Below, in pieces: positions 1,346 through 17,253 of a stretch of DNA of 24,000 nucleotides. A model generated the notes under the pieces. That model was not told where the DNA came from. It saw nothing but the letters and a program-made list of their open reading frames with translations, and searched no databases. A program made the translations under genes and the position numbers. Source of the stretch: an uncultured Actinomycetes bacterium (lineage in GTDB: Bacteria > Actinomycetota > Acidimicrobiia > IMCC26256 > BP-133); contig CAWBJP010000001.1 of the NCBI GenBank assembly GCA_963789165.1, positions 272,096 to 296,095 on the forward strand. The letters run 5' to 3'. Numbering within the stretch: position 1 is the stretch's first letter; each line of letters opens with the position of its first letter.

Positions 1346-1421
1346 CCCTCGACGCAGAAACCCCGTCGCAAATCCACCCACGGCACACGCATAGGTGCGG
1401 TGAAGGCGGAAGAAGCGCACC

Positions 1422-1435
1422 AACCAACGGAGAAA
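1422..1435. repeat. Left copy of the 14-bp direct repeat AACCAACGGAGAAA; candidate target-site duplication of the IS481-like element
   Basis: An exact 14-mer is present at 1422-1435 and 3192-3205, immediately outside the putative IS termini, each of which begins TGT. Confidence 0.55.
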
Positions 1436-3191: not shown

Positions 3192-3205
3192 AACCAACGG
3201 AGAAA
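3192..3205. repeat. Right copy of the 14-bp direct repeat AACCAACGGAGAAA (candidate TSD)
   Basis: Identical to 1422-1435 and abuts the right IS terminus. It lies 84 nt from the 3' end of tRNA-Glu. Confidence 0.55.
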
Positions 3206-3288
3206 CTTCTATGGATGTGTGATGGATGGCAAGCCGAAGGGCCACCTCCGAACCCATCGGAAATGGCCCCCCACCTGCACTTTTCTCG

Positions 3289-3361
3289 TAGCCCGTACGG
3301 GATTCGAACCCGTGTCTCCACCTTGAGAGGGTGGTGTCCTAGGCCCCTAGACGAACGGGCC
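3289..3361 (-). tRNA. tRNA-Glu (anticodon CUC)
   Basis: The reverse complement folds by hand as GGCCCGT TC GTCT AGGGGCCTA GGAC A CCACC CTCTCAA GGTGG AGAC ACGGG TTCGAAT CCCGT ACGGGCT A. This gives a 7-bp acceptor stem (G1:U72 wobble), D and T arms, a TTCGAAT T-loop and anticodon loop CT-CTC-AA. CCA is not encoded. Confidence 0.9.
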
Positions 3362-3470: not shown

Positions 3471-3689
3471 TCAGCCGGCCAGAAGGAGGGGGGCGACGAA
3501 GGCGGTCCGGTTGAATCCGACCTCGGCCTCCCAGACCAGTTCGTCGATCTCCTCGTCGGCCAGCGTCTGGCTCAGCAGCCCGTGCACCCGGACCGCCGCC
3601 CGAGCCCAGTTCGTCGGGGCCAGGAGGGCGTCTTCCCACTCCAGGGTCGTCGACATGGTCGTCGGCGGGTTCTCCATCGTGAGGGTCAT
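3471..3689 (-). CDS. Hypothetical small protein (72 aa)
   Basis: ATG at 3689 is preceded by AGGAGG with a 5-nt spacer (cccAGGAGGccgacATG). Third codon positions are almost all G/C, consistent with the coding bias of the window. I recognise no family. Confidence 0.55.
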   Translation of the reverse strand: MTLTMENPPTTMSTTLEWEDALLAPTNWARAAVRVHGLLSQTLADEEIDELVWEAEVGFNRTAFVAPLLLAG

Positions 3690-3773
3690 GTCGGCCTCCT
3701 GGGCTGCGTACGGATGGGCGTGTCGATCATCCCGGTGCGGGCCGGGGTCGTCCTTCGCTCGGGCGACCGAGGC

Positions 3774-3793
3774 TGTGTGCCGGCGGCGACACA
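3774..3793. promoter_or_regulatory. 20-bp palindromic motif TGTGTG-CCGGCGGC-GACACA; candidate operator in a divergent promoter region
   Basis: It lies midway between divergent starts, 85 nt from 3689 (minus) and 87 nt from 3880 (plus). It shares 16 of 20 positions, including both A/T-containing arms, with the site at 11401-11420. I found no other TGTGT-N10-ACACA when scanning the window by eye. Confidence 0.4.
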
Positions 3794-3879
3794 GGAGGCG
3801 TCGCCCTCAACGACCTGGGGTCGGGTCAGGACGACGATGGACTCGACCGCAGCACACCACCGTCGCCGAGGAGGCCGGA

Positions 3880-4035
3880 ATGACCGTCACCCTGGAGTTT
3901 CCGCCCAGCACCACCGTCACCGACGACCGGCCGGAGTCCGAAGTCGCCGAAGAGCAGGCTGTCCCGTCGAAGCCGTTCGAGGAGTTCGCGGCTCTCCTGG
4001 CCCAGTCCTACATGTGGACGCCCCTCTTCGCCTGA
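3880..4035 (+). CDS. Small ORF (51 aa) with an acidic N-terminal half and an aromatic C-terminus ...AQSYMWTPLFA
   Basis: ATG at 3880 is preceded by GAGGAGG (gccGAGGAGGccggaATG). About 90% of third positions are G/C. The stop lies 35 nt upstream of the peroxidase ATG at 4071, so the two are likely co-transcribed. Confidence 0.55.
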   Translation: MTVTLEFPPSTTVTDDRPESEVAEEQAVPSKPFEEFAALLAQSYMWTPLFA

Positions 4036-4070
4036 GCCACGGAGAGATCGTCGAGAGGACGAGTAAGCCC

Positions 4071-5124
4071 ATGGGGCGACGGTCGAGAGCACCGGACGAA
4101 CACGGAAATGTCTTCTCCAGGTGGCTCATCGGTGTCCCCCTGGCGCTGGCCGCGCTGGCCGCCCTGGCGTTCGGCTGCACCCGACACGTCTCGGGCGCCG
4201 AGCCGCTCACCGCCGGGCGGATCCTCGGCCCCGTCCCGGTCCCGGCGGGGAACCCGCAGACCCCGGACAAGATCGCACTGGGCAAGCTCCTGTTCTTCGA
4301 CAAGCGGCTGTCCGCCGACAACGCCACGGCCTGCGCCAACTGTCACGACCCGGCCAAGGGCTGGAGCGACGGTCTGCCCCGCAGCGTCAGCCCCGCCGGC
4401 GAGATGGAACGCAACAGCATCAGCCTGTTCAACATCGCCTACGAGGACTTTCCGGCCTGGGACGGATTCGCCGCCAGCCTGGAAGAACACAATGGCGCCG
4501 CGCTCACCTTCGACTTCGGGGCCGGTGCGCAGGACGTTCCCGAACTGATCCGGAGCTGACGGACGACCCCGGATACCGGGAGCGCTTCGGGAAGGCCTTC
4601 GCTGGTGAGATCAGCTTCACCAGCGTCATCCGAGCCCTGGCCGCCTTCGAGCGCAGCGTGCTCACCTTCGGCTCCGACTTCGACCAATTCGCGATGGCGA
4701 CCGGTCCCGGCTGACGGCCGAGCAGCAGGACGGTCTGGCCCTGTTCATGGGGAGGGCGGCCTGTTCGTCATGCCACATCCCGCCGCTGTTCACCGACAAC
4801 CGCTTCCACGCCCTCGGCGTCCCCCAGGCCGGGCCCCTGGCCGAGGACCCGGGGCGGTTCGCCGTCACCGGCGACGAGGGGGACCGGGGCGCTTTCCGCA
4901 CCCCGACGCTGCGCAACCTGACCCTGACCGCGCCCTACATGCACGACGGCGTCTTCACCACCCTCGACGAGGTGGTCGCCTTCTACGACGCCGGTGGCGG
5001 TGCGGTGCCGGGCCGGAGTGGCCCCGAGATCGGGCCCCTCCACCTCAGCGCCGGAGAGCGCAAGGCACTGGTGGCGTACCTGGAGTCACTCACCGACACG
5101 AGATCTCAGACCGTCGGACCCTGA
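4071..5124 (+). pseudogene. Di-haem cytochrome c peroxidase / MauG-family protein, two frameshifts as assembled (about 4545-4556 and 4696-4698)
   Basis: There are two CxxCH haem motifs (CANCH and CSSCH) plus family-typical strings: LGKLLFFDKRLSADN, DPGYRERFGKAF, FRTPTLRNLTLTAPYMHDG, LDEVVAFYD. The three pieces lie in frames 3, 2 and 1. Restoring one G in ATGGCG (about 4696) gives ...FAMGDRSRLTAEQQDGLALFMG.... The N-terminus carries a hydrophobic signal/anchor (WLIGVPLALAALAALAFGC). Confidence 0.8.
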
Positions 5125-5148
5125 CGTCATCCCCGGCATCGCCGGCGG

Positions 5149-5843
5149 CTACCGGGCGAAGACGACCAGGAACTCGAGCTCGCCGTGGTCCTCGGTGGTC
5201 ACCGGGCCGAAGCTTGGGCTGGGGATGCCCCACTCAGCAAAGACGATGGGGATGGAACCCTGCACGTTGATGTTGGCGCCATCGCGACTGTGCCGTCAGG
5301 TCGACGGTGACGGTCTTCTTTGTGCCGTGCAGGGTCAGCTCGCCGGTGGCCGGCACGGTGATCTGCTTCCCGTCGGCCGGAAGCTCACCGAGGTCGATGG
5401 GCGTGGTCAGGGTGAACGTCGAGGTGGGGTAGGTGGCCACGTTCATGATCCGGCCCCGGAACTGGTTGTCACGGCGGTTCTCGTCGCTCTCCACCGTGGT
5501 CATGTCCACCGTCACGGTGGCCGTCGTGACCTTGGTCCCCTCGATGACCAGCTCGCCGGTCACGTCCTCGGTGCGGCCCGCCGCCTCGGCGTTCCGGCCG
5601 AGGAGCACCTCGTTCACCCGGTACCCGGCCTGGCTGCCGGTGGTCGCCGTCCAGGTGCCCTCCACGCCGGCCGCAGTCGAGGACCCCCCGTCGGTCGACG
5701 ATCGGGGCCGGGTCCCCGGAGCCTTTGAGGGTCAGAGGGGCGGGGGCGTCCTCCTTGATCAGGTCGACGTAGACCCAGGTCCCGCCGAAAGCGAGGACGG
5801 CAGCGAGGGGTACGGCGACGAGGAGCCACTTGAAACGGTGCAT
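5149..5843 (-). pseudogene. YceI-family periplasmic/secreted protein, two frameshifts as assembled (about 5279-5290 and the C6 run at 5684-5689)
   Basis: The N-terminal signal is MHRFKWLLVAVPLAAVLAFGG and the core reads GTWTATTGSQAGYRVNEVLLG...TVESDENRRDNQFRGRIMNVATYPTSTF. The C-terminus is recovered in a third frame: GANINVQGSIPIVFAEWGIPSPSFGPVTTEDHGELEFLVVFAR*. RBS GGAAAGG lies 7 nt upstream of the ATG. Confidence 0.8.
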
Positions 5844-5944
5844 GGGAGAACCTTTCCAGAACGCGGTGTGTTATCGGGGAAAGTCTCGGCGCCGCGCTTC
5901 CGACCAGCCTGGGGACTTCATGTGAAATCCCTGGGAACGACGGA

Positions 5945-5974
5945 GGCCGGCCCGAGGGCGCGCTCGGGCCGGCC
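5945..5974 (-). terminator. GC-rich hairpin 20 nt downstream of the 5995-6585 gene; candidate intrinsic terminator
   Basis: A perfect 12-bp stem GGCCGGCCCGAG / CTCGGGCCGGCC with loop GGCGCG. There is no clear U-tract, as is common in high-GC actinobacteria. Confidence 0.55.
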
Positions 5975-5994
5975 CCCCGGGACGGGCACGGCCG

Positions 5995-6585
5995 CTAGGA
6001 GCCGGGCTTCCGTTCGCTGAAGCGTTCGACATGGGCGAGCTTCATGGCCGCGGCGTCGAAGATCTGGACGGCCCGGGCCTCGCTTCCCTTGACCTCGGCG
6101 CTGAGCCGCACGGAGTCGCCCTGCTTCAGGTTGTCGATGCCGTCGCGCCCGGCGGTGACCACGGTGGCTTCGTCCACCGAGTAGGTGCGCTTGTAACCGT
6201 CCTCGCTCTCCAGCGTGATCGACGTGGGGCTGACCGAGACGACCTTCCCCAGTTGCGTGGCGGTCGTCTGGTACTTGCCCTCGGGGTTCTCGAAGGTGAC
6301 CTCGGAATGGATGCCCCCGGGGTCGAAGCCGCCGAACCCGAAGCCGAAGCCACCGGGCCTGCGCACCCGGAACACGGCGTCCGCACCGGGGCCGGGGAAC
6401 GGCATCCCGGGAGGGCCGGCGAAGAAGGGCGGCGGCACCGGGACGGCCTCCTCGGCGGGAACGGCCTTCTGCTCCTCGGCGCCGGCGATGCCGAGACCCC
6501 CGGCGACGAGACCCACGGCGAGTGCGGCGAGCGCGATCCCGGGGCGGAACCACCGGGACCCGGGCGGTGAATGGTGGGTATCCAT
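5995..6585 (-). CDS. Hypothetical membrane-anchored/secreted protein (196 aa)
   Basis: ATG at 6585 has RBS GGAAAGGA upstream. The N-terminal hydrophobic segment is WFRPGIALAALAVGLVAGGLGIAG, followed by a Pro/Gly-rich linker (PPFFAGPPGMPFPGPG...GGFGFGFGGFDPGG) and a beta-rich C-terminal domain. The longer 277-aa ORF-track version adds an R/P-rich N-terminus that looks non-coding. Confidence 0.7.
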   Translation of the reverse strand: MDTHHSPPGSRWFRPGIALAALAVGLVAGGLGIAGAEEQKAVPAEEAVPVPPPFFAGPPGMPFPGPGADAVFRVRRPGGFGFGFGGFDPGGIHSEVTFENPEGKYQTTATQLGKVVSVSPTSITLESEDGYKRTYSVDEATVVTAGRDGIDNLKQGDSVRLSAEVKGSEARAVQIFDAAAMKLAHVERFSERKPGS

Positions 6586-6593
6586 GGTGTCCT

Positions 6594-6620
6594 TTCCGGG
6601 CCCGTGCTTCGGGCCCGGAA
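6594..6620 (-). promoter_or_regulatory. Perfect 11-bp-stem hairpin overlapping the Shine-Dalgarno region of the 5995-6585 gene
   Basis: The hairpin is TTCCGGGCCCG-TGCTT-CGGGCCCGGAA. On the minus-strand transcript its 3' arm ends in ...CCCGGAA, continuing AGGACACC-ATG, so part of the GGAAAGGA SD is inside the stem. It could equally be the terminator of bldC, whose stop is about 100 nt upstream. Confidence 0.4.
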
Positions 6621-6719
6621 CGAACATCTCGCACCCAGCTGATAACAGGCTGTGGACAACCTGAGAAGCCGCGAACCGGACACGCGGGGTTCGGGGTGTC
6701 CCCGGAAGTGGGGCGCGCT

Positions 6720-6992
6720 TCAGGCGCCGAGCCGTTGCTCCTCGAGGTAGCGGAGGATCTCGGCGGCGTTGAAACGCCGGTGCCCGCCCAGGGTGCGGAT
6801 GGCGGAGATCTTCCCGGCCTTGGCCCACCGGGTGACCGTCTTGGGGTTGACCCGGAACAGTTCGGCCACTTCGGTAGGGGTGAGGAGGTCGTTGGGGTCG
6901 GTGCGGGGCTGCTGCACGGCGGTCCTTTCCTGGTCTGCCTCACTCGGGGGGACAGAGGGGACAGCCCGGGCGGTGACGGGCATTTCTCTCAT
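6720..6992 (-). CDS. bldC: BldC-like small MerR/excisionase-type DNA-binding regulator
   Basis: LLTPTEVAELFRVNPKTVTRWAKAGKISAIRTLGGHRRFNAAEI is nearly identical to the Streptomyces BldC core as I recall it (...FRVDPKTVTRWAKAGKL..IRTLGGHRRY...). The start is uncertain: TTG at 7001, or ATG at 6992 or 6983. Confidence 0.8.
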   Translation of the reverse strand: MREMPVTARAVPSVPPSEADQERTAVQQPRTDPNDLLTPTEVAELFRVNPKTVTRWAKAGKISAIRTLGGHRRFNAAEILRYLEEQRLGA

Positions 6993-7049
6993 AACGGACA
7001 ACGCACGAGTGACCCGGCTATGACGCCTGGCCGGCGGACAGTCGGGACC

Positions 7050-10149
<3,100 letters not shown>

Positions 10150-10163
<14 letters not shown>

Positions 10164-11124
10164 GCCACCGCACCCGCCGCTCCACCTCGCGCCGCACCGC
10201 CCGGTCGGCCACCGCGGCCGCCGCCCGCCGGCGCACCTCCCCGTCGTCCTCGGCCGGCACCTCCCGGGACAGCACCCGGGTCACCCGCCAGCCCTCGGCC
10301 ATCCGGGCCGGTCCGAGCGCGTCGCCGGCCCGCGCCCCGATGAGGGCCGGGCGCAACTCGGGTTCGAAGTCACACAGATGGGCCCGCCGCCGCCCCGGGG
10401 CAGCCCGGGCCGGGGTGTCCCCGGAGAAGAGTACGGCGGAGAAGTCCCCGTCCTCCCGCAGGCACAGCAACGCCTCGCGGGCGGTCGCCTCCTCGGGAAA
10501 CGACACCCACTCCAGGTCGAGGTCGATCCAGTCGAGGCGGCGGGCCACCACCTCCTCGGCGATGACCCGATCCGTGGCCGCCGCTCGCCGAAAGGCGACG
10601 TAGGCGGCTTCGAGCACCTCCCAACGGTCGCCGGCCCCCGGCGGGCGGGTGGGGACATGACCGGGCTCCGCACCGGCGGCTTCGGTCCGGGCGGCGGCGG
10701 CCGCGGCCCGATCAGCCACGGCCGCGGCGAAGGTCGAGTAGAGGCCGGAGCAGATGCCGGTGGCCCACAGCCGCGACGCCTCCTCCGCGTCCGCCGTCGG
10801 CCCCGCCCGCAGTTCGGGGTGGCGCTCCCGGGCCACGGTCCGACGGATGTGGTCCATCCAGGCGGAGACGGAGAGACGGCGCCCGGCCAGCCAGCGCTCT
10901 GTGTCCTCGGCTGAGATCAGGCGGTGCCGCCGGCGGAAGGCAGCCGCCGCCGCCCGCACCTCCTCGTCGCGCTGTCCCTCCGGCGCGGGGACGAGCGCCA
11001 GCGCCGCGACGCCCTCACGGACCTCACGAACATGGTCGCTCCACGCCTCCTGGCGGCGGCCCCAGTCGAGCACGTCCCCCCAGGTGTAGTCGGTGGAGGC
11101 GACGCGGAAGACGACGTCGTCCAA
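10150..11124 (-). CDS. Hypothetical 324-aa cytoplasmic protein with a degenerate parvulin (PpiC)-like C-terminal region; candidate peptide maturation/chaperone partner
   Basis: High-GC3 ORF with no signal peptide. The C-terminal stretch EEATAREALLCLREDGDFSAVLFSGDT...CDFEPELRPALIGARAGDALGPARMAEGWRVTRVLSRE follows the parvulin pattern (G-D-F..., then 'xG(D/E)xxGPxxxxxGWxxxxV') by eye. It is translationally coupled to the PCAT. The start is uncertain: TTG at 11124 lies 15 nt from AGGAG, and a GTG 17 codons downstream is an alternative. Confidence 0.65.
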
Positions 11125-11142
11125 GCGCCGGGTGACCCGCTC

Positions 11143-11295
11143 CTAGCCCGATCCGCCCTTGCCGCCCTGGCCCGTGGGGTCGGCGTCGTCGGCGGCGGCG
11201 CCCCCCTTGATGTTCTCGGCGTCGGACGGCTCCGGCTCGAGGTCCTCGAGCTCGTCGACGTCGTCGGTCGGCCCGGCGGCGCGGATGTCGTTCAT
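11143..11295 (-). CDS. 50-aa precursor micro-peptide with an acidic double-glycine-type leader: MNDIRAAGPTDDVDELEDLEPEPSDAENIKGG | AAADDADPTGQGGKGGSG
   Basis: ATG at 11295 is preceded by GCGAGGGG with a 5-nt spacer. In the C-terminal 18 codons, 17 of 18 third positions are G/C, which fixes the frame across the G6 run. ...SDAENIKGG resembles the LSxxELxxIxGG leader end cleaved by C39 peptidases. It is the first gene of the operon that ends with a catalytically intact C39-ABC exporter. Confidence 0.65.
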   Translation of the reverse strand: MNDIRAAGPTDDVDELEDLEPEPSDAENIKGGAAADDADPTGQGGKGGSG

Positions 11296-11400
11296 GTCGG
11301 CCCCTCGCTCTCTCCTATGCACCCCGCCGGCAGCGCCGTTGGGGATGCCCGCATGGTATGGCCAGGATGCGACAGCGTCGATGCTCCCTTGAGCGCTGCA

Positions 11401-11424
11401 TGTGTCACGGTGCCGACACACCGT
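11401..11424. promoter_or_regulatory. Overlapping palindromes TGTGTC-ACGGTGCC-GACACA (11401-11420) and CACGGTG-N5-CACCGTG (11406-11424); candidate operator
   Basis: The site lies 106 nt upstream of the peptide ATG (minus strand) and 41 nt upstream of the ATG at 11461 that I reconstruct as the native cyclase start (plus strand). It shares the TGTGTS-N8-GACACA architecture with 3774-3793. Confidence 0.4.
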
Positions 11425-11483
11425 GGCCGGGCCGGCCGCACGGGCTACCGTCACCAGACGATGACCTTCAATCGAGCCGCAAG

Positions 11484-11503
11484 CCCACGGGTTCAGCCGT
11501 GGG
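11484..11503 (+). other. IS200/IS605 left-end subterminal hairpin
   Basis: The hairpin is CCCACGG-GTTCAG-CCGTGGG, extended by outer arms CGAGCC (11473-11478) / GGCTCG (11508-11513) around an internal loop. Confidence 0.65.
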
Positions 11504-11566
11504 TCAAGGCTCGGTCGGGGCTAGGCCCCGGAGGTAGTTGTCGTACCCGCGGTCCAGAATGGGCCT

Positions 11567-11956
11567 GTGGAGTATCGGTCGATGAACAAGACGGTGTACT
11601 CGACGAAGTACCACCTGATCTGGTGCCCGAAGTACCGCCGCCGCGTACTGGCCGGCAGGGTCGAGGAGCGCCTGAAGGAGATCCTCGCCGAGGTTGCCGG
11701 TGAGGTCGGGGCGGAGATCATCGAGGTGGAAGTGATGCCCGACCATGTGCACCTGCTCGTTGAGGTGCCCCCGGCGGTGGCGCGGTCCCGGTTCGTGCAG
11801 TTGGAGGGACGGTCGGCCCGGCTGCTGCGCCAGGAGTTCCCCCCGCTGCGCCGCCTGGGGTGTTTGTGGAGCCCGTCGTGGTTCGTCTCCACCGTCGGTG
11901 GAGCGCCGCTCGAGGTGGTCCGCCGCTACGTCGAGAACCAGAAGCGGGTGGCGTAG
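11567..11956 (+). CDS. tnpA: IS200/IS605-family Y1 (HUH) transposase TnpA
   Basis: YSTKYHLIWCPKYRRRVL, HUH motif MPDHVHLLV, and the catalytic Tyr context RRYVENQ. Length is about 125-129 aa. The real start may be the ATG at 11582 (MNKTVY...). Confidence 0.9.
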   Translation: MEYRSMNKTVYSTKYHLIWCPKYRRRVLAGRVEERLKEILAEVAGEVGAEIIEVEVMPDHVHLLVEVPPAVARSRFVQLEGRSARLLRQEFPPLRRLGCLWSPSWFVSTVGGAPLEVVRRYVENQKRVA

Positions 11957-11959
11957 CTC

Positions 11960-13144
11960 GTGGCCTTCCGTTACCGCCTTTACCCCACCCCGGCCCAGGC
12001 GGGGGGTTGCGAGCGGCACTGCGGCGACGCCCGCTACGTATGGAACCTGGCCCTGGAGCAGGCGAACTACTACCGGCCCGGGCATCCCACGCCCGGGAGC
12101 ACCGAACGGTTCCGCCAGCTCGCCGAGGCCCGGAAGGGCTCCTGGCTCGGCGAGGGGTCGTCGTCGGTGCAACAGCAGGCCCTGCGCGACTTCGACCAGG
12201 CGCTGCGGAACTGGTGGGCCGGCACGCATCGCCGGCCCAGGTGGCGCAAACAGGGAATCGACGAGGGATTCTGCCTCCGCGACGTCAAGGTGCAGAAGAT
12301 CTCAGGCAAGTGGGCCGAGGTCTACGTACCCAAGGTCGGCCCGGTGCGCTTTCGACTCACCCGCCCCCTCGGCGCGCACGGCATGGCTCGGGTCACCAGG
12401 GACCGGGCCCGGCGCTGGCACATCTCGTTCTCCGCCCCTCAGCCGCCCCTCGAACGCCCCGGCACTGGTTTGGCGGTCGGCGTCGATGTCGGCGTGGCCC
12501 ACACCGTCACCACCAGCGCCGGGAAGCATCTCGACATCCCCGGCCTCCGACCCGGCGAGCAGGCCCGCCTGCTCCGCCTGGAACGCAAGAAGGCCCGGCA
12601 GCGCAAGGGCAGCAACCGGCGTGCGAGAACCAAGCACGCCATCGCCGCCCTCCACGCCCGGGCCGCCGACCGCCGCAAGGACTGGGCCGAGAAGACCTCC
12701 ACCGGCCTCGTCGCCGACTTCGACCTGGTCGTCTTCGAGGCGCTCAGGGTCAAAGACATGCTCCGCTCCGCCCACGGCACCGCCGAGAACCCGGGCCGCA
12801 ACGTCGCCGCCAAAGCCGGGCTCAACCGGAAGATCGCCGCATCGGCCTGGGGGTTCCTCATCCGGCGCACCCAGGAGAAAGCCGCCACGACCGACGACTG
12901 CCAGGTGGTGCTCGTCGACCCTCGGCACACGTCGCAGCGCTGTTCGGCCTGCGACCACGTGGCCCCGGGCAACCGGCCGACCCAGGCAACCTTCCGGTGC
13001 GTGGCCTGCGGCCACGCCGAACACGCCGACATCAACGCGGCCAAGAACATCCTGGCGGCAGGGCTTGCCGCCACTGCGCGTGGAGGGAGGCCCGAAATCG
13101 GGGCGCCCAGCGAAGCGCGAACCACCGGACGGGAGGCGGCATGA
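11960..13144 (+). CDS. tnpB: TnpB (OrfB_IS605 RuvC-like, RNA-guided nuclease family) with a zinc ribbon
   Basis: GTG start. The N-terminus FRYRLYPTPAQ is typical of TnpB. RuvC triad candidates are present: GVDVGV (D), VVFEAL (E), HADINAAKNI (D). The zinc ribbon reads CSACDH...FRCVACGH. There are no frame disruptions. Confidence 0.9.
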   Translation: MAFRYRLYPTPAQAGGCERHCGDARYVWNLALEQANYYRPGHPTPGSTERFRQLAEARKGSWLGEGSSSVQQQALRDFDQALRNWWAGTHRRPRWRKQGIDEGFCLRDVKVQKISGKWAEVYVPKVGPVRFRLTRPLGAHGMARVTRDRARRWHISFSAPQPPLERPGTGLAVGVDVGVAHTVTTSAGKHLDIPGLRPGEQARLLRLERKKARQRKGSNRRARTKHAIAALHARAADRRKDWAEKTSTGLVADFDLVVFEALRVKDMLRSAHGTAENPGRNVAAKAGLNRKIAASAWGFLIRRTQEKAATTDDCQVVLVDPRHTSQRCSACDHVAPGNRPTQATFRCVACGHAEHADINAAKNILAAGLAATARGGRPEIGAPSEARTTGREAA

Positions 13145-16100
13145 ACACGCCCCCCAAAGGAATCCCACGGCTCCAGCCGAGGGAGGAGGTCAAGGAGTCC
13201 GGACTCCATGCCCGGGAAGGGGAGCTCCCCACGGGAGCGGTCACGTTCCTCTTCACCGACATCGAAGGTTCGACCCGCATGGCCGAGCATCTCGGGTCCA
13301 GCTTCGGCGAGCTGCTGGACGCCCACCACCGGTTGCTGGGCGAGGCGGTCGTCTCCCACCGGGGCGTGGTCGTCAACACGCAGGGTGACGCCTTCTTCGC
13401 CGTGTTCCTCGCCGCCGCCGACGCCCTCGCCGCGGCCGTGGCCGCCCAGCGGGCCCTGGCCGCCGAAGCGTGGACGGGCGGCGTGGAGCTGCGGGTGCGC
13501 ATGGGCATGCACAGCGGCGAGGCGGTCCTCGGCGGCGCCGACTACGTGGGCCTGGCCGTCCACCGGGCCGCCCGGGTGGCCGGCCTGGCCTACGGCGGTC
13601 AGGTCCTGGTGTCGGAGGCGACCCGGCGCCGGGCCGATCCGGAGCTGCCCGTCGACGTCAGCTTCACCGATCTCGGTCTGCACCGGCTCAAGGACCTGAC
13701 CGAGCCCGAACGGATCCATCAGCTCGTCCATCCCGACCTGTCCCGCGACTTCCCCGCGCTCCGATCCCTCGACGCCTTCCGCCACAACCTTCCCGTCGCC
13801 GCCACCAGCTTCGTGGGCCGGGAGTCGGAGGTGGCCGCCCTGGCCAAGCACCTGGCCGACGCCCGCTTGGTCACGCTGCTCGGACCGGGCGGTTCGGGCA
13901 AGACCCGCCTCGCTCTCCAAGTGGCGGCGGAACGGGTGGACCAGCACACCGACGGGGTGTGGCTGGCGGAGCTGGCGCCCTGGGGCGATCCGGCGCTCGT
14001 GCCCGCCGCCGTGGCCGCCGTGCTCGCGGCCCGGGAGGAGCCGGGCAAGAGCCTGGTGGAAACTCTGGAGAGCTGGGTGGCGGACCGGGACGTGCTCCTC
14101 GTGCTGGACAACTGCGAGCACGTGGTGGCCGCCGCCGCCGACCTGGCCGGCCGCCTCCTGCGGGCCGGACCGGGAGTGCGGGTACTGGCCACCAGCCGGG
14201 AGGCGCTCGGCCTGGCCGCCGAGCAGGTGGTGACTGTGCCCCCGCTGCGCCTGCCCGATCCGGCGGCGGGGACGTCACCTTCGCTCGAGGCCCTCCTCGA
14301 CTCCGAGGCCGTCCGGCTCTTCGTGGAACGGGCCCGTTCGGCCCGGCCGGACCTGGAGCTGGGCCCCGAACACGCCGCCGCCGTCATCCGCATCTGCACC
14401 CGGCTCGACGGGATCCCCCTGGCCCTGGAGCTGGCCGCCCGCCGGGTCCGGGCGCTGTCCCTCTCCGAACTGGCCGACCGTCTCGACCAGCGTCTCCGCT
14501 TCCTGACCGGCGGGGGCCGGGAGACCGAGGCCCGCCACCAGACCCTGCGCGCCGCCATCGACTGGAGCCACGACCTGCTGGAGGGCGACGAACGCACCCT
14601 CTTCCGGCGCCTGGGGGTGTTCGCCGGCGGCTTCGACCTGGCCGCGGCCGAGACGGTGTGCGCCGGGCCCTACGACACCCTCGACCTGATCGCGGCGCTG
14701 GTCGACAAGTCGCTCGTGGTGGCGTCGGAGGCGGGCGGAGCGACCCGTTACCGGATGCTGGAGACCATCCGGGAGTACGCCCTGGAACGCCTGTCCGAGG
14801 CCCGGGAGGACGACGCCACCCGCCACGCCCACCTGGCCTGGGCGCTGCACGTGGTGGAGCGCGGCGCACCACCCCGCTCCCGGGGCCTGCCCCGGGAATG
14901 GGTGGATCACCTCGATGTGGCGCACGACAACCTGCGGGTGGCCCTCGACCATGCCCAGGAGCACGACCCGGAGGCGGGCCTGCGGCTGGCCGCCGCCCTA
15001 CGGCCCTTCTGGTGGGTGCGGGGCCACTGGCACGAAGGTCGGGTCCGGCTGGAGGCGGCCCTGGCCCGGACCCCGGGCGCGGCCCCCGCCCTCCGGGCCA
15101 AAGGCCTGGTGGGGGCGGCCGACCTGGCCGAGTGGCAGGGAGACCTGGGCCCGGCCACGGCCCTGGCCGAGGAGGCCCGCCAGATCTTCCGCCGGGCGGG
15201 CGACCGGCCCGGCGAAGCGGAGTGCTGCTGGAAGCTGGGCAACGTGGCCTTGATGCGGGGGCGGACGGCCGACGCCCGGGGCCTGCTGGAGGAGGGCGTG
15301 GCCATCTCCCGGGACCTCCCGGCTCGGGAGCATCTGGCGGAGTTGCTCAACGCTCTCGGTTGCCTGTTCCTGGACGAGGGCGACTTCGGCGCCGCCCGCC
15401 ACTGCTGGGAGGAGACCCTGGCCACCGACCCGGCCCTCTCCGACGCCTTCGTCGGCGGCCCCGGCTCCCACGCCCGGTTCAATTTGGCCATGGTCCTCTG
15501 CTTCGAGGGGGCCTACCCCGCGGCCCGGGAACTGGCCCAGGAGAGCCTGGAGCGGGGCCGGGTGCTGGGCGACGCCAGCCTGGCCGCCGGAGCCCGGGGC
15601 CTGCTGGGGGAGATCGCTCTCTACGAAGGCGACTTCGCCGCCAGCCGGTCGCTCCTGGAGGAGAGCCTGGCGCTCCAGCGGCAGCTGGGCGAGGCGACGA
15701 TGGTGGCGGGCACCACGCTGCGCCTCGGCCGCCTGGCGCTGGCCCGCGGCGACCTGGCGGGGGCGCGGACGCTCCTGGAGGACGGGCTGCGCCAGCAGCG
15801 GGAGCTGGACGGCAAGTGGGGTACCGCCTCCGCTCTGCGGGGCCTGGGCGTCGTCGCCCGCCAGGAGCAGCGCTACGGGGAGGCCCGGTCGGCCCTGGAA
15901 GAGAGCCTGGCCCTCTTCCGCGAGATGGGCAGCCGCGACGACGTGATGACCAACCTGGGTGAGCTCGGGGAGCTGGCCCTGGCCGAAGGCGACCTGACCT
16001 CGGCCCGGGCCCTGCTGGAGGACAGCCTGGATCAGAGCCGGGCCCTGGGCGTGCAGCGGGAGACGGCGTGCCGGCTGGAGGCCCTGGGTCGCCTGGCCCT

Positions 16101-16431
16101 GGCCGAGGGTGACCTCGACGGCGCGGCGCGACGGGCTGGCCGACGCCCTGGCCCGGGCCGTCGAGCTCGGAGCCCGGCCCGTCGCCGCGGACGCGGCCGA
16201 AGCCCTGGCCGCGGCGGTCGCCGCCGGCGACGACCTCCAGCGGGCCGCCCGCCTGCTCGGGTCCGCCTCCGGCCTGCGCGAATCCATGGGCGCCGCCACT
16301 CCTGCCGTCGGTACGCGTCGGGCACGACACCACCTGGGCCGCGGTGCAGAAGGGCGCTCGGCCCCGAGGAAGCGGGGCGGGCCGTGGCCGACGGGAGAGG
16401 CTTGGCCCTGGAGGAGCTCGCCGCGCCATGA
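13141..16431 (+). CDS. Class III adenylate/guanylate cyclase domain + STAND P-loop NTPase (NB-ARC-like) + TPR repeats; C-terminal 300 nt needs three +1 frame corrections
   Basis: The cyclase domain has LPTGAVTFLFTDIEGST...NTQGDAFFAVF...GLAVHRAARV...LGLHRLKDL. The P-loop is LLGPGGSGKTRLA and Walker B is VLLVLDNCEH. It also has RLDGIPLALELAA and a long TPR-like array (G(D/E)xxxAxxLLEESLAL...). The ATG at 13141 overlaps the tnpB stop (ATGA). The ORF-track version starting at 11860 is an out-of-frame run-through of tnpB. The tail is read best as frame 1 to about 16125, frame 2 to about 16292, frame 3 to about 16352, then frame 1 to the stop at 16431. Confidence 0.85.
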   Translation: MNTPPKGIPRLQPREEVKESGLHAREGELPTGAVTFLFTDIEGSTRMAEHLGSSFGELLDAHHRLLGEAVVSHRGVVVNTQGDAFFAVFLAAADALAAAVAAQRALAAEAWTGGVELRVRMGMHSGEAVLGGADYVGLAVHRAARVAGLAYGGQVLVSEATRRRADPELPVDVSFTDLGLHRLKDLTEPERIHQLVHPDLSRDFPALRSLDAFRHNLPVAATSFVGRESEVAALAKHLADARLVTLLGPGGSGKTRLALQVAAERVDQHTDGVWLAELAPWGDPALVPAAVAAVLAAREEPGKSLVETLESWVADRDVLLVLDNCEHVVAAAADLAGRLLRAGPGVRVLATSREALGLAAEQVVTVPPLRLPDPAAGTSPSLEALLDSEAVRLFVERARSARPDLELGPEHAAAVIRICTRLDGIPLALELAARRVRALSLSELADRLDQRLRFLTGGGRETEARHQTLRAAIDWSHDLLEGDERTLFRRLGVFAGGFDLAAAETVCAGPYDTLDLIAALVDKSLVVASEAGGATRYRMLETIREYALERLSEAREDDATRHAHLAWALHVVERGAPPRSRGLPREWVDHLDVAHDNLRVALDHAQEHDPEAGLRLAAALRPFWWVRGHWHEGRVRLEAALARTPGAAPALRAKGLVGAADLAEWQGDLGPATALAEEARQIFRRAGDRPGEAECCWKLGNVALMRGRTADARGLLEEGVAISRDLPAREHLAELLNALGCLFLDEGDFGAARHCWEETLATDPALSDAFVGGPGSHARFNLAMVLCFEGAYPAARELAQESLERGRVLGDASLAAGARGLLGEIALYEGDFAASRSLLEESLALQRQLGEATMVAGTTLRLGRLALARGDLAGARTLLEDGLRQQRELDGKWGTASALRGLGVVARQEQRYGEARSALEESLALFREMGSRDDVMTNLGELGELALAEGDLTSARALLEDSLDQSRALGVQRETACRLEALGRLALAEGDLDGAARRAGRRPGPGRRARSPARRRGRGRSPGRGGRRRRRPPAGRPPARVRLRPARIHGRRHSCRRYASGTTPPGPRCRRALGPEEAGRAVADGRGLALEELAAP
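13164..13183 (+). other. IS200/IS605 right-end subterminal hairpin
   Basis: The hairpin CCCACGG-CTCCAG-CCGAGGG has one mismatch and is closely related to the LE hairpin sequence. It lies within the first 15 codons of the cyclase ORF as now assembled. Confidence 0.6.
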
Positions 16432-16433
16432 CA

Positions 16434-16461
16434 AAGGCCCAGGTCGTCGGACCTGGGCCTT
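16434..16461. terminator. Perfect 12-bp hairpin between the convergent cyclase gene and tRNA-Gln; candidate bidirectional terminator
   Basis: AAGGCCCAGGTC-GTCG-GACCTGGGCCTT starts 3 nt after the cyclase stop and ends 17 nt from the tRNA-Gln 3' end. Confidence 0.65.
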
Positions 16462-16477
16462 CACCATCCTGATGGAG

Positions 16478-16549
16478 CTCGGGGGCAGGGATTCGAACCC
16501 CGAATGGCAGGGCCAGAACCTGCTGTGATGCCGATTTCACCACCCCCGA
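16478..16549 (-). tRNA. tRNA-Gln (anticodon CUG)
   Basis: The reverse complement folds as TCGGGGG TG GTGA AATCGGCA TCAC A GCAGG TTCTGGC CCTGC CATT CGGGG TTCGAAT CCCTG CCCCCGA G (72 nt). It has the U1:A72 pair typical of bacterial tRNA-Gln and anticodon loop TT-CTG-GC. Confidence 0.9.
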
Positions 16550-16563
16550 ACGCGGCCCGCAGG

Positions 16564-17253
16564 TTAGCGCGTCAGTGGGCCAGGAAAGCCCCCCCGACCT
16601 CCCGGCCGACCTCGCCGGCCCGGACCATCCGGCGGAATCCGATGATCCGGCCGACGCCCGACCTGGGCCGTCTCGGTGAGCAGGTGGCGGAACTCGTCGG
16701 CGCCCTGGATGGGACTCGTCCGCGTCGGCGAGGTGGCCGCCTCGAGGCCCAGTTCCTCGGCCATGCCGTTGATCCGGGCGGCGTGGAACGGGTCGGAGAC
16801 GAGCACCACGTCGTGGATCCCCTGAGCCTTGAGGAACCGGGCCGATGCAGCCAGGGACTGCCATGAGTTGCGTCCCTGGACCTCGCGGAGGATGACGTCG
16901 TCCGGCACGCCCTTGCCGTGCAGGTAGCTGGCGCTGGCCCCCGACTCGGTGAACCGGTCGCCCTCGGCCCGGCCTCCGGTGACAACGATCACCGGGGCCA
17001 GACCCTGGTGGTAGAGATCGGCGGCGTGGTCGAGGCGGGCGGCCAGCACCCGGGACGGGCGGCCGTTGTACTGGGCCGCGCCCAGCACCACGATGGCCTC
17101 CGCCTTGCGGGCTTCGTCGTGACGCCCCGCCCACCACACCTGGACGAAGGTGACGGCGAAGTAGCCGGTCACGATCACCAGGCCGGTGGCGATGGTTCGC
17201 CGGACGAGGCGCGGTCTCATCCGCCCCATCGAAGCACGCCCGTCGGGGTCCAC
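16564..17253 (-). CDS. DUF218 / YdcF-ElyC-SanA-family protein with an N-terminal membrane anchor; probable frameshift near 16650-16660
   Basis: The sequence includes IVVLGAAQYNGRPSRVLAARLDHAADLY, VIVVTGG, VVLVSDPFHAARI and an N-terminal TM segment (IATGLVIVTGYFAVTFVQVWW). The last 35 aa in this frame are R/G/P-rich. The alternative frame ending at 16572 reads ...GRIIGFRRMVRAGEVGREVGGAFLAH*, which looks like the conserved family C-terminus. Confidence 0.75.
   Translation of the reverse strand: MDPDGRASMGRMRPRLVRRTIATGLVIVTGYFAVTFVQVWWAGRHDEARKAEAIVVLGAAQYNGRPSRVLAARLDHAADLYHQGLAPVIVVTGGRAEGDRFTESGASASYLHGKGVPDDVILREVQGRNSWQSLAASARFLKAQGIHDVVLVSDPFHAARINGMAEELGLEAATSPTRTSPIQGADEFRHLLTETAQVGRRPDHRIPPDGPGRRGRPGGRGGFPGPLTR

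What the first reader, a model, noticed from the sequence alone, without database searches (positions are those of the whole stretch)
11296..16431. Cyclase-STAND-TPR sensor divergently paired with the cNMP-gated exporter: a possible self-contained second-messenger circuit
Ignoring the IS insertion, the nucleotidyl cyclase-P-loop-TPR gene (plus strand) and the peptide/PCAT operon (minus strand) would share a divergent control region of about 165 bp (11296-11460). One side encodes a cNMP synthase fused to a STAND switch and a TPR sensor array. The other encodes a protein with two cNMP receptor domains.

Inference: the STAND-TPR module senses a ligand or partner and activates the cyclase, and the local cNMP opens the peptidase/exporter. 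Cyclase-ATPase-TPR/LuxR proteins are common in actinobacteria (for example the M. tuberculosis Rv0386 type). This one has no DNA-binding output domain, which fits an output that is purely the nucleotide.
Basis: inference. Interest (0 to 1): 0.7.

Follow-up and report, generated by a model that had tools for sequence, protein, structure and literature searches.

The report
Cyclase sensor beside cNMP-domain peptide exporter
An uncultured Acidimicrobiia bacterium keeps a gene for a sensor-linked cyclic-nucleotide synthase back-to-back with an operon for a small secreted peptide and an exporter carrying two cyclic-nucleotide receptor domains. This looks like a private signalling circuit but is unproven, and in this copy a mobile element has cut the synthase gene off from its own promoter and start codon.

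Summary
A class III cyclase–STAND–TPR gene (+ strand) faces an operon on the − strand. That operon encodes a double-glycine-leader peptide, a SurA/PpiC-like protein and a 2×CNB–C39–ABC exporter. The gap between them is 165 bp once an IS200/IS605 element (11466-13193) is removed.

A 93%-identical empty site (L092) shows the IS sits after ATGAC, inside codon 2 of the cyclase gene. An ATG in the IS right end, overlapping the tnpB stop codon, keeps the cyclase body in frame.

The divergent pairing recurs in every informative orthologous locus, all from Acidimicrobiia. Nearly all of these share wider synteny, and only one (L001) has different flanks. Roughly 70 loci from other phyla carry the SurA-like and CNB-exporter pair. 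Of these, only L044 has a cyclase directly adjacent, and four have one within 10 kb, about the background rate.

The cyclase keeps both metal-binding Asp, the adenine-side Asp and the catalytic Arg, and dN/dS is about 0.2. Both CNB domains keep the canonical Glu/Arg phosphate-binding cassette and best resemble PKA/PKG receptor domains.

Three 1-nt insertions scramble the cyclase 3′ end, but the window has similar frameshifts in essential genes, so assembly error is likely.

The parts
7050..10163 (-). PCAT exporter, 1037 aa: CNB1 (PBC at aa 84-98), CNB2 (PBC at aa 214-228), C39 peptidase (Cys338, His411), ABC transmembrane domain, and NBD (Walker A aa 833, Walker B aa 956).
   Evidence: Pfam hits. 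Closest NCBIfam families TIGR01846 and TIGR03796 are both below cutoff. Motif positions. PKA/PKG-like CNB tandem.
10150..11124 (-). SurA/PrsA/PpiC-like partner protein, 324 aa. Its stop overlaps the PCAT start by 14 nt.
   Evidence: TIGR04500 hit at 29.5 bits, below the cutoff of 180. AlphaFold model has pLDDT 87. Foldseek best matches are SurA and PrsA at E 5e-6. It sits next to a CNB-PCAT in about 88 of 91 loci.
11143..11295 (-). Precursor peptide, 50 aa: MNDIRAAGPTDDVDELEDLEPEPSDAENIKGG | AAADDADPTGQGGKGGSG. It has a double-glycine leader and a short acidic, Gly-rich core.
   Evidence: ORF. The leader ELEDLEPEPxDAEN(I/V)KGG is conserved and the core is variable in orthologous loci.
11296..11460 (.). 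Native divergent control region (165 bp). It contains a conserved palindrome TGTCA-N6-CGACA (11403-11418), a -10-like TACCGT (11446-11451) 10 nt before the native cyclase ATG, and a conserved ATGGTA (11353-11358), which reads TACCAT on the minus strand.
   Evidence: Alignment of 8 orthologous intergenic regions. The palindrome is the only match in the window, against 0.10 expected. The generic sigma-70 scan finds nothing.
11461..11465 (+). Orphaned native start of the cyclase gene (ATG AC), left upstream of the IS.
   Evidence: Empty-site comparison with L092...GACGATGAC|GGAGTCCGG....
11466..13193 (+). IS200/IS605-family element, 1728 bp: left-end hairpin 11481-11503, tnpA 11582-11956, tnpB 11960-13144, right-end hairpin 13161-13183. 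It ends in ...GGTCAA and has no target duplication.
   Evidence: blastn breakpoints. Junction sequences. Y1_Tnp at 134 bits and TnpB NF040570 at 224 bits. The two end hairpins form an 83% direct repeat.
13141..16431 (+). Present cyclase-STAND-TPR ORF, 1096 aa. Residues 1-18 (MNTPPKGIPRLQPREEVK) are IS-derived, and native sequence starts at 13194. Cyclase domain is about 13222-13725, P-loop 13882-13905, Walker B 14095-14121, TPR about 15337-16125. The segment at about 16131-16355 is scrambled.
   Evidence: Pfam. Orthologue alignment. Catalytic residues. Indels relative to L092. Motif coordinates.
16477..16549 (-). tRNA-Gln (CTG), immediately downstream of the cyclase stop. It marks the end of the module.

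Best explanation
**What it is.** This is a lineage-specific four-gene module of uncultured Acidimicrobiia. A cytoplasmic class III nucleotidyl cyclase fused to a STAND NTPase and a TPR array is transcribed divergently from an operon. That operon encodes a small double-glycine-leader peptide, a SurA/PpiC-like chaperone or adaptor, and a peptidase-containing ABC exporter with an N-terminal PKA-like tandem of cyclic-nucleotide-binding domains.

**Most likely working (inferred).**
- The TPR/STAND part switches the cyclase on in response to a bound ligand or partner.
- The cNMP produced is read directly by the exporter's two CNB domains.
- These license leader cleavage and export of the peptide, with the SurA-like protein presenting the precursor.

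**In this window (shown).** An intact IS200/IS605 element has inserted after ATGAC in codon 2 of the cyclase gene. The native promoter, operator and start codon are disconnected. The gene body is fused in frame to an ATG with a GGGAGG ribosome-binding site in the IS right end, overlapping the tnpB stop codon. If the cyclase is still made, it carries 18 foreign N-terminal residues and is expressed from IS read-through rather than from the shared control region. The peptide/exporter promoter side is untouched.
For: **Anatomy**
- Domain content.
- IS boundaries and empty site.

**Linkage**
- The cyclase is divergently adjacent across 108-166 bp in L001, L002-L004, L005 and L092. It is also adjacent in L012, L013 and L094 by HMM.
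- L001 keeps the four genes in entirely different flanks.
- The cyclase orthogroup has 8 clusters at 79-94% identity, then a gap to 50% or less. None of its members is known from a different genomic context.
- 0 of 80 paralogous cyclase-STAND-TPR loci carry a SurA-like neighbour.
- An unrelated DUF5985-cyclase lies directly upstream of, and co-directional with, the CNB-PCAT in L044.

**Enzyme competence**
- D40 and D83 (metal), D134 and R145 are conserved.
- His141 at the Asn position is a common family variant: N 36, H 30, A 20 of 97 paralogues. Ma1120, described in the literature as an active adenylyl cyclase (recalled, not checked here), has Ala at this position.
- dN/dS is 0.18-0.26.

**Receptor competence**
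- FGESALLEGQVRGAT and FGERALLEGTHRTAS keep the Glu and Arg of the phosphate-binding cassette in every clade member.
- The best solved relatives are the PKA RI-alpha and PKG tandem CNB domains, at E of about 1e-23.

**Exporter and partner**
- The C39 Cys/His and the ABC motifs are intact.
- The peptide leader is conserved.
- A TIGR04500 SurA-like protein (MirC) is a proven partner protein in a PCAT-containing RiPP cluster (PMC13097080).
Against: - Almost all supporting loci are one vertically inherited syntenic block, so conserved adjacency carries little independent weight. Effectively there are one or two independent observations (L001, L044).
- Roughly 70 loci from other phyla with the same SurA-like/CNB-PCAT pair, many with canonical cassettes, have no cyclase within 10 kb. 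The few that do (L006, L081) sit among housekeeping genes at roughly background density.
- The CNB domain of HetC, the one studied CNB-PCAT, did not bind cAMP and bound ppGpp (PMC10986499).
- The substrate-specifying Lys is Asn79. This residue is seen in 0 of 97 paralogues, so the product nucleotide is unknown.
- No experiment exists, and no organism is in culture.
Confidence: 0.45

Rival explanations
1. The adjacency is inherited but not functional. The cyclase contributes to the general cellular cAMP pool or to some unrelated output. The exporter's CNB domains respond to the global cNMP level or to a different ligand such as ppGpp. The two transcription units simply happen to be neighbours in a conserved chromosomal block.
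For: - There is long-range synteny around the module in L002, L005, L012, L013, L014, L092, L093 and the window.
- Cyclases are not enriched next to the SurA-like/CNB-PCAT pair outside this clade.
- The cyclase belongs to a very large family, with more than 7900 proteins at E<1e-50, that occurs in many contexts.
- HetC's CNB domain binds ppGpp, not cAMP (PMC10986499).
Against: - L001 retains exactly the four genes while both flanks differ.
- The short divergent intergenic region carries a conserved palindrome.
- The cyclase orthogroup has not been seen anywhere else.
- Asn79 is unique to the orthogroup.
- An unrelated cyclase sits immediately upstream of the exporter in L044.
Confidence: 0.3
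2. The link is transcriptional rather than post-translational. cNMP from the cyclase acts through a CRP/FNR-type regulator encoded elsewhere. That regulator binds the conserved TGTCA-N6-YGACA palindrome in the shared control region and switches the peptide/exporter operon, and possibly the cyclase gene itself. The CNB domains on the exporter could add a second layer.
For: - The palindrome has CRP-like 5-6-5 geometry. It is conserved in 7 of 8 orthologous intergenic regions and is unique in the window.
- A paralogous cyclase-STAND-TPR gene (L155) is followed directly by a Crp-type CNB-HTH regulator.
Against: - No CRP-like gene is present in the module.
- The half-site differs from the actinobacterial CRP consensus TGTGA-N6-TCACA (own knowledge).
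- The palindrome could equally serve the highly conserved HTH_17/MerR-like protein encoded just downstream (6720-7001).
- This rival does not explain why the exporter carries two intact CNB domains.
Confidence: 0.15
3. The module is an anti-phage or conflict system of the Pycsar/Avs type. A STAND-TPR sensor detects an invader and its cyclase effector domain makes a cyclic nucleotide. A CNB-bearing effector, here a peptidase/exporter, then executes the response.
For: - STAND-TPR plus an N-terminal enzymatic domain is the Avs-like layout (own knowledge).
- PADLOC gives CNB-domain hits to Pycsar effectors (58 bits) and weak PycC hits for the cyclase (21 bits).
- An AbiEii toxin gene and transposase fragments lie 8-10 kb away.
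Against: - The PADLOC hits reflect generic domain similarity only, and no defence-system model is matched as a whole.
- The module sits in a conserved housekeeping neighbourhood (GluRS, LeuA-like, tRNA-Gln) with stable synteny and purifying selection.
- It includes a conserved secreted-peptide precursor and a chaperone.
Confidence: 0.03
4. In this particular genome the cyclase gene is a pseudogene. The IS removed its promoter and start codon, and the 3' end has since accumulated three frameshifting insertions. The circuit is broken and the exporter runs without its dedicated input.
For: - The IS sits in codon 2.
- Three 1-nt insertions at 16131, 16298 and 16355 scramble about 75 codons of the last TPR helices.
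- In L093 both the cyclase (P-loop region missing, frameshifts) and the PCAT (two frameshifts) look degraded.
Against: - An in-frame ATG with a GGGAGG site at 13141, overlapping the tnpB stop, keeps a 1096-codon ORF open.
- dN/dS against L092 is 0.18, with no sign of relaxation.
- The window shows comparable frameshifts in GluRS, the 725-aa protein, DUF218, YceI and a cytochrome c peroxidase. The 3' indels are therefore more likely assembly errors.
Confidence: 0.3

Closest known systems
Rv0386-type mycobacterial/actinobacterial cyclases (class III cyclase - ATPase - TPR - LuxR HTH)
   Same: Both have an N-terminal class IIIc-like cyclase starting within about 10 residues of the N-terminus (LPTGxVTFLFTDIEGST). 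This is followed by a P-loop STAND NTPase and a TPR array. Substrate-specifying residues are non-canonical (Gln/Asn in Rv0386 from own knowledge; Asn79/Asp134 here).
   Different: There is no LuxR or any other DNA-binding output domain. The closest relatives are LuxR-less proteins annotated 'predicted ATPase/class 3 adenylate cyclase'. This orthogroup is tied to a peptide-export operon.
HetC of Nostoc PCC 7120 (CNB-domain PCAT; PMC10986499)
   Same: Both are ABC exporters with an N-terminal cNMP-binding-type domain followed by an active C39 peptidase. In HetC the CNB region is required for function.
   Different: HetC's domain did not bind cAMP and bound ppGpp in vitro. The protein here has two CNB domains with canonical PKA-like Glu/Arg cassettes, a SurA-like partner, and in this lineage a dedicated neighbouring cyclase.
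Rosaritide cluster MirA-D (TIGR04500 partner protein MirC + PCAT MirD; PMC13097080)
   Same: Both have a precursor peptide, a SurA-like/PpiC-related partner protein and a C39 PCAT in one operon. The fold of the 324-aa protein is SurA/PrsA-like, as reported for MirC.
   Different: There is no ATP-grasp graspetide synthetase or any other modifying enzyme in the module. The TIGR04500 score is far below cutoff, 29.5 against 180. MirD is not reported to carry CNB domains.
Pycsar (cyclase + CNB-domain effector anti-phage pairs)
   Same: The logic is the same: a class III-type cyclase is encoded next to a protein whose CNB domain reads the product, forming a private second-messenger channel.
   Different: The effector here is a peptide exporter rather than a TIR or membrane-disrupting protein. 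The cyclase is a 1080-aa STAND-TPR protein. The context is housekeeping and syntenic. PADLOC similarity is only at domain level.
IS608/ISDra2-type IS200/IS605 elements
   Same: Y1 TnpA plus TnpB, similar imperfect hairpins near both ends, 19 nt between the left cleavage site and the hairpin and 10 nt after the right hairpin, a right end finishing in TCAA, insertion 3' of a short motif (here ATGAC), and no target duplication.
   Different: Nothing unusual about the element itself. The noteworthy point is its position in codon 2 of the cyclase gene, and that its right end supplies an in-frame start codon.

Membership tests
Class III nucleotidyl cyclase (PF00211) | Profile match above the curated threshold | tested here: met
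   Guanylate_cyc scores 39.9 bits against a cutoff of 21.9, over aa 31-166. The best solved relative is Ma1120 at E 5.7e-22.
Class III nucleotidyl cyclase (PF00211) | Two metal-binding Asp and the transition-state Arg | tested here: met
   D40 (FTDIEG), D83 (QGDAFF) and R145 are invariant in all orthologues and present in 95-96 of 97 paralogues.
Class III nucleotidyl cyclase (PF00211) | Canonical transition-state Asn and substrate-specifying Lys/Asp pair | tested here: not met
   The Asn position is His141. This is a common variant: H 30, N 36, A 20 of 97 paralogues, and Ma1120 has Ala. The Lys position is Asn79, found in 0 of 97 paralogues. The Asp is conserved (D134). Activity and nucleotide specificity therefore cannot be read from sequence.
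STAND NTPase with TPR sensor (MalT/AfsR/NB-ARC-like) | P-loop Walker A and Walker B, STAND profile, C-terminal repeat array | tested here: met
   GPGGSGKT at aa 248 and LLVLDNCEH at aa 319. nSTAND1 scores 32.7 against 27.1. TPR_12 scores 111 bits and TPR_MalT 48.6 against 45.
Rv0386-type cyclase-ATPase-TPR-LuxR regulators | C-terminal LuxR-type HTH output domain | tested here: not met
   There is no PF00196/GerE or other HTH hit in the window protein or in orthologues P0022-P0029.
Peptidase-containing ABC transporter (PCAT) | C39 domain with catalytic Cys/His, ABC TMD and NBD, and a double-glycine-leader substrate gene nearby | tested here: met
   Peptidase_C39 at 128.7 bits, ABC_membrane at 136.7 and ABC_tran at 115.4. 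Cys338 and His411, Walker A/B, signature and H-loop are present. The conserved ...KGG leader peptide is encoded two genes upstream. No NCBIfam equivalog reaches its cutoff.
Cyclic-nucleotide-binding domain (PF00027), ligand-competent | Phosphate-binding cassette FGE...R(x)A(T/S) with Glu and Arg | tested here: met
   Both domains carry it: aa 84-98 and aa 214-228. They align to PKA RI-alpha cassettes.
Cyclic-nucleotide-binding domain (PF00027), ligand-competent | Actual binding of cAMP, cGMP or another cNMP | not testable with these tools
   The HetC precedent shows a CNB-type domain on a PCAT can bind ppGpp instead (PMC10986499).
TIGR04500 / TIGR04510 'peptide maturation/modification system' (NCBIfam) | Scores above the curated cutoffs for the PpiC-related protein and for the system cyclase | tested here: not met
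   TIGR04500 scores 29.5 against 180 and TIGR04510 scores 32.1 against 400 for the window proteins. Distant family members and the L006 cyclase are also sub-threshold.
IS200/IS605 insertion sequence | Y1 transposase, optional TnpB, sub-terminal hairpins, no inverted repeats or target duplication, insertion next to a short motif | tested here: met
   NF033573 scores 135.6 against 55 and NF040570 scores 224 against 100. Hairpins at 11481-11503 and 13161-13183. There is a clean empty site in L092 with no duplication, and insertion is after ATGAC.
Pycsar anti-phage system | PycC cyclase and CNB effector matching system models, in a two-gene operon | tested here: not met
   Only weak or domain-level PADLOC hits: PycC at 21 bits for the cyclase, and CNB-region hits for the exporter. 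The genes are divergent, not an operon.

The most novel reading that the evidence does not exclude
A dedicated STAND-TPR cyclase and an exporter with PKA-like tandem CNB domains form a private, post-translational second-messenger gate on peptide secretion. The TPR array may read the exported peptide itself, which would close a quorum-type feedback loop. Cyclic-nucleotide control of a PCAT by its own neighbouring cyclase has not been described in the literature searched. The unique Asn79 could mean the messenger is not cAMP.
Probability: 0.35. Interest if true: 0.7.

Novelty: new variant of a known kind. Interest (0 to 1): 0.45.

Why it matters
Peptidase-containing ABC exporters release bacteriocins, quorum signals and RiPPs. 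How their activity is controlled after translation is poorly understood. The one studied CNB-bearing example, HetC, has an unclear physiological ligand.

A lineage in which such an exporter sits beside its own sensor-coupled cyclase offers a concrete test of whether cyclic nucleotides gate peptide export. It needs only three proteins and a 50-residue peptide.

It would also assign an output to one member of the very large, functionally obscure family of LuxR-less cyclase-STAND-TPR proteins found in soil bacteria.

The IS insertion is a natural 'uncoupled' allele next to an intact one (L092). That pair could be exploited for comparison.

Tried and rejected
- **TIGR04500/TIGR04510.** I considered whether the module is simply NCBI's 'peptide maturation system' with its 'system cyclase'. 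All scores are far below cutoff for the window and for distant relatives. The literature search found only graspetide contexts, and there is no ATP-grasp gene here.
- **Distant cyclases as independent support.** The L006 and L081 cyclases are 2-5.6 kb away, and in L006 a housekeeping threonine dehydrogenase gene lies between. A rough density estimate from the flanks gives about one adjacent cyclase expected by chance, and one was observed (L044).
- **His141 as evidence of a dead enzyme.** His is in 30 of 97 paralogues, and Ma1120 has Ala at this position.
- **CNB neighbours of paralogous cyclases.** 5 of 80 paralogous cyclase-STAND-TPR loci have a CNB-protein neighbour. Extra CNB genes appear in about 4 of 90 control flanks. 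There is no enrichment.
- **Pycsar/Avs-type defence reading.** PADLOC gives domain-level hits only.
- **Rfam.** The gathering scan found only two tRNAs and no omega-RNA family.
- **Generic promoter/terminator scan.** It found nothing in the control region.
- **Other copies of the IS.** None were found among the 175 fetched loci.
- **Metagenome scan for more cyclase orthologues.** It returned only paralogues at 35-52% identity.
- **The last context look-up (P0027).** It was uninformative because the contig ends inside the gene.
- **Actinobacterial cyclase survey paper (PMC2447327).** It is held only as a reference list, so statements about Rv0386 rest on my own knowledge.

Full report
**Gene map**

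The window has about 70% G+C. Third-position GC profiles and translations define the genes.

On the minus strand there is an operon of three genes:
- A 50-codon ORF at 11143-11295, MNDIRAAGPTDDVDELEDLEPEPSDAENIKGG|AAADDADPTGQGGKGGSG.
- A 324-aa protein at 10150-11124.
- A 1037-aa protein at 7050-10163, whose start overlaps the previous stop by 14 nt.

Pfam assigns the large protein two cNMP_binding domains, Peptidase_C39, ABC_membrane and ABC_tran. The C39 Cys/His and all ABC motifs are present.

The 324-aa protein has only a sub-threshold match to TIGR04500, 'PpiC-related putative peptide maturation system protein'. A confident AlphaFold model (pLDDT 87) matches SurA and PrsA chaperones.

On the plus strand lie an IS200/IS605 pair and a long ORF ending at 16431. 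The IS genes are Y1 TnpA (11582-11956) and TnpB (11960-13144). The long ORF's real coding signal starts near 13170. It carries a class III cyclase domain, a STAND P-loop NTPase and a TPR array, and has no HTH output domain.

**The insertion sequence**

A metagenomic contig, L092, is 93% identical at the DNA level and lacks the IS. Window 10000-11465 and 13194-16550 are contiguous in it.

The junctions read ...GACGATGAC|CTTCAATCGAGCC...GAGGAGGTCAA|GGAGTCCGGACTCC... The empty site reads ...GACG ATG AC|G GAG TCC..., encoding MTESGLH. The element is therefore 11466-13193 (1728 bp). It lies after ATGAC inside codon 2 of the cyclase gene and made no target duplication.

It has similar imperfect hairpins 19 nt inside the left end and 10 nt inside the right end. 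That is the IS608-type layout (own knowledge).

The IS right end happens to contain GGGAGG-N6-ATG at 13141. This ATG overlaps the tnpB TGA and is in frame with the cyclase body. As a result MNTPPKGIPRLQPREEVK replaces the native MT. No other start codon exists before the LPTG motif.

The cyclase can therefore only be expressed by read-through from the IS. The peptide operon's side of the control region is intact.

**The 3′ end of the cyclase gene**

Relative to L092, the window has single-base insertions at 16131, 16298 and 16355. Together these restore the frame but scramble about 75 codons of the last TPR helices.

The window also has frameshifts relative to orthologues in several other genes:
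- glutamyl-tRNA synthetase
- a 725-aa protein
- DUF218
- YceI
- a cytochrome c peroxidase

I therefore regard assembly error as the likelier cause. dN/dS between the window and L092 is 0.18, similar to other pairs at 0.23-0.26.

**Is the pairing conserved?**

*From the SurA-like protein.* This protein is rare, with 21 clusters in a 5.8-billion-protein database. All informative contexts place it directly upstream of a 2×CNB-C39-ABC gene. A scan of 185,579 species genomes with a family alignment gave 80 more loci. They come from Acidimicrobiia, Gemmatimonadota, Verrucomicrobiota, Acidobacteriota, Binatia and other Actinomycetota. My HMM scan finds the SurA-like and CNB-PCAT pair in essentially all of them.

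*Where the cyclase is adjacent.* The cyclase-STAND-TPR gene is adjacent only in the Acidimicrobiia clade, where the SurA-like protein is 57-95% identical. These loci are L001-L005, L012, L013, L092 and L094. In the loci with called genes the intergenic region is 108-166 bp. In L093 the two are separated by a roughly 6-kb insertion, and both the cyclase and the PCAT look damaged.

*From the cyclase.* The reciprocal search finds 8 orthologous clusters at 79-94% identity, then an abrupt drop to 50% or less, into a family of more than 7900 proteins. Every orthologue with enough contig is either next to the peptide operon or, where the contig ends first (L175), in the same syntenic block. None of 80 paralogous loci has a SurA-like neighbour.

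**How much that conservation is worth**

Almost all clade members share the wider gene order p725-DUF218-cyclase-peptide-SurA-like-PCAT-HTH_17-p196-YceI, at dS of about 0.6. Adjacency would persist by descent alone at that divergence. Only L001 shows the four genes intact in different flanks on both sides.

Outside the clade:
- A different cyclase (DUF5985 + Guanylate_cyc, 97 bits) lies immediately upstream of, and co-directional with, the CNB-PCAT in L044.
- An FHA-linked cyclase-like gene lies 2.2 kb downstream in L008-L010.
- The cyclases in L006 and L081 are kilobases away; in L006 the genes in between are housekeeping ones.
- Roughly 70 other loci have none.

A rough density estimate from the far flanks predicts about one adjacent cyclase by chance. 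The comparative evidence is real but thin, amounting to one lineage plus one or two independent hints.

**Are the parts competent?**

*Cyclase.* Aligned with the solved cyclase Ma1120, the cyclase keeps both metal Asp (D40, D83), the adenine-side Asp (D134) and the Arg (R145). The transition-state Asn is His141 and the substrate Lys is Asn79, in every orthologue.

In 97 paralogous domains the metal Asp and the Arg are near-invariant. The Asn position is N 36, H 30, A 20, S 10. Ma1120 itself, which I recall from the literature as an active adenylyl cyclase, has Ala there. The Lys position is highly variable but never Asn. The enzyme does not look dead, but its product cannot be predicted.

*Receptor domains.* Both CNB domains carry canonical cassettes, FGESALLEGQVRGAT and FGERALLEGTHRTAS. 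The same is true of every clade member and of 50 of 85 family members overall. Their best solved relatives are the tandem CNB domains of PKA RI-alpha and PKG.

*Caveat.* The CNB region of HetC, the only studied CNB-PCAT, is essential but bound ppGpp rather than cAMP (PMC10986499).

**Control region**

Alignment of eight orthologous intergenic regions shows three conserved elements:
- A palindrome TGTCA-N6-YGACA at window 11403-11418. It is the only match in 24 kb, against 0.1 expected.
- A TACCGT box 10 nt before the native cyclase ATG, which suggests a near-leaderless transcript.
- A box reading TACCAT on the peptide strand.

The palindrome has CRP/FNR-like geometry. This allows a transcriptional route for cNMP as a rival or an addition to direct gating.

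**Comparison with known systems**

- The cyclase resembles the Rv0386-type cyclase-ATPase-TPR-LuxR proteins but lacks the LuxR domain.
- The exporter resembles HetC but has two canonical CNB domains.
- The peptide, SurA-like protein and PCAT trio parallels the rosaritide cluster. There the TIGR04500 protein MirC is an obligatory partner of a graspetide synthetase (PMC13097080). No modifying enzyme is present here.
- The producer-next-to-receptor logic recalls Pycsar, but PADLOC shows only domain-level similarity and the context is housekeeping.
- Literature searches found no description of a cyclase paired with a CNB-PCAT.

**Verdict**

I estimate about 0.45 that the cyclase's product directly gates the exporter.

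It is best filed as a new variant of known kinds (PCAT export systems and cyclase-STAND-TPR sensors) confined to a narrow uncultured lineage. In this window the circuit has been rewired or broken by an IS200/IS605 insertion into codon 2 of the cyclase gene.

Noticed in passing
window 13141-13215: The IS right end supplies GGGAGG-N6-ATG overlapping the tnpB stop (ATGA), in frame with the cyclase body. The first 16-20 nt after the IS (GGAGTCCGGACTCCATGCCC, cyclase codons 2-8) would be the guide of the element's TnpB omega-RNA. ATGAC/TGAC would be the target-adjacent motif, matching the conserved empty site in relatives.
   Followed up: partly
window 5286, 5702, 16131, 16298, 16355, 16449, ~16660, ~17450, ~18230, ~20117: Frameshifts or 1-nt indels relative to orthologues cluster in two tracts (5.2-5.7 kb and 16.1-20.1 kb). 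They hit glutamyl-tRNA synthetase, a 725-aa protein, DUF218, YceI and the cyclase 3' end. None occur in 5998-16130. This suggests uneven assembly quality rather than biology.
   Followed up: partly
window 11403-11418: A palindrome TGTCA-N6-CGACA is conserved in orthologous control regions (perfect TGTCAC-N4-GTGACA in L001 and L013). It has CRP/FNR-like spacing, and the binding protein is unknown.
   Followed up: partly
window 6720-7001 (-): A small HTH_17/MerR-type DNA-binding protein lies just downstream of the exporter. It is 89-94% identical across relatives, higher than the PCAT at 84-88% in the same comparisons. It is absent next to the module in L001. It is a candidate local regulator.
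   Followed up: no
window 746-3361: An AbiEii-type toxin domain (746-1345) and a fragmented rve/HTH transposase in three frames (1501-3257) abut tRNA-Glu(CTC) at 3288-3361. This is a second mobile or degraded element at a tRNA gene.
   Followed up: no
window 3582-4714 (+): A di-haem cytochrome c peroxidase (CCP_MauG) is split between two overlapping frames.
   Followed up: no
L093:1458-14129: This is a relative in which the module looks degraded. The cyclase lacks about 125 residues including the P-loop and is frameshifted. The PCAT has two frameshifts. A roughly 6-kb insert separates cyclase and operon and carries a 367-aa CNB protein, an ADH_N protein and a TPR protein. This may be co-decay of both partners.
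   Followed up: partly
L044:330-6381: In an Actinomycetota MAG the gene order is DUF5985-cyclase, then CNB-PCAT, then SurA-like, all co-directional. The cyclase is canonical (Asn and Arg present) and unrelated to the STAND-TPR type. This is an independent cyclase/CNB-PCAT juxtaposition.
   Followed up: partly
L014:3573-6896 (-): A second, divergent cyclase-AAA_16 gene is inserted between the PCAT and the HTH_17 gene in a close relative. The contig ends before the expected upstream cyclase.
   Followed up: no
L155:1069-4592 and L162:781-6502: Paralogous cyclase-STAND-TPR genes lie next to other CNB-domain proteins: a Crp-type CNB-HTH regulator in L155 and a TLC-transporter/HEAT/CNB protein in L162. 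At 5 of 80 loci this is not enriched over background.
   Followed up: partly
L092:442-1338 versus window 16550-16570: L092 carries about 1.19 kb more than the window here (rc 4797-5987), a stretch that includes the Esterase_PHB gene, between tRNA-Gln and DUF218. The window has only 20 bp at this position.
   Followed up: no
L049 and L054, upstream of the SurA-like gene: Other Actinomycetes loci encode peptides with a related acidic leader (...DLEVRGDEAR(D/E)VAGG) but basic, Lys-rich cores. This contrasts with the acidic, Gly-rich cores of the Acidimicrobiia clade.
   Followed up: no
window 13375-13377 (Asn79 codon): Asn at the substrate-specifying Lys position is invariant in the orthogroup and absent from 97 paralogous cyclase domains. 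This hints at a distinct nucleotide specificity.
   Followed up: partly
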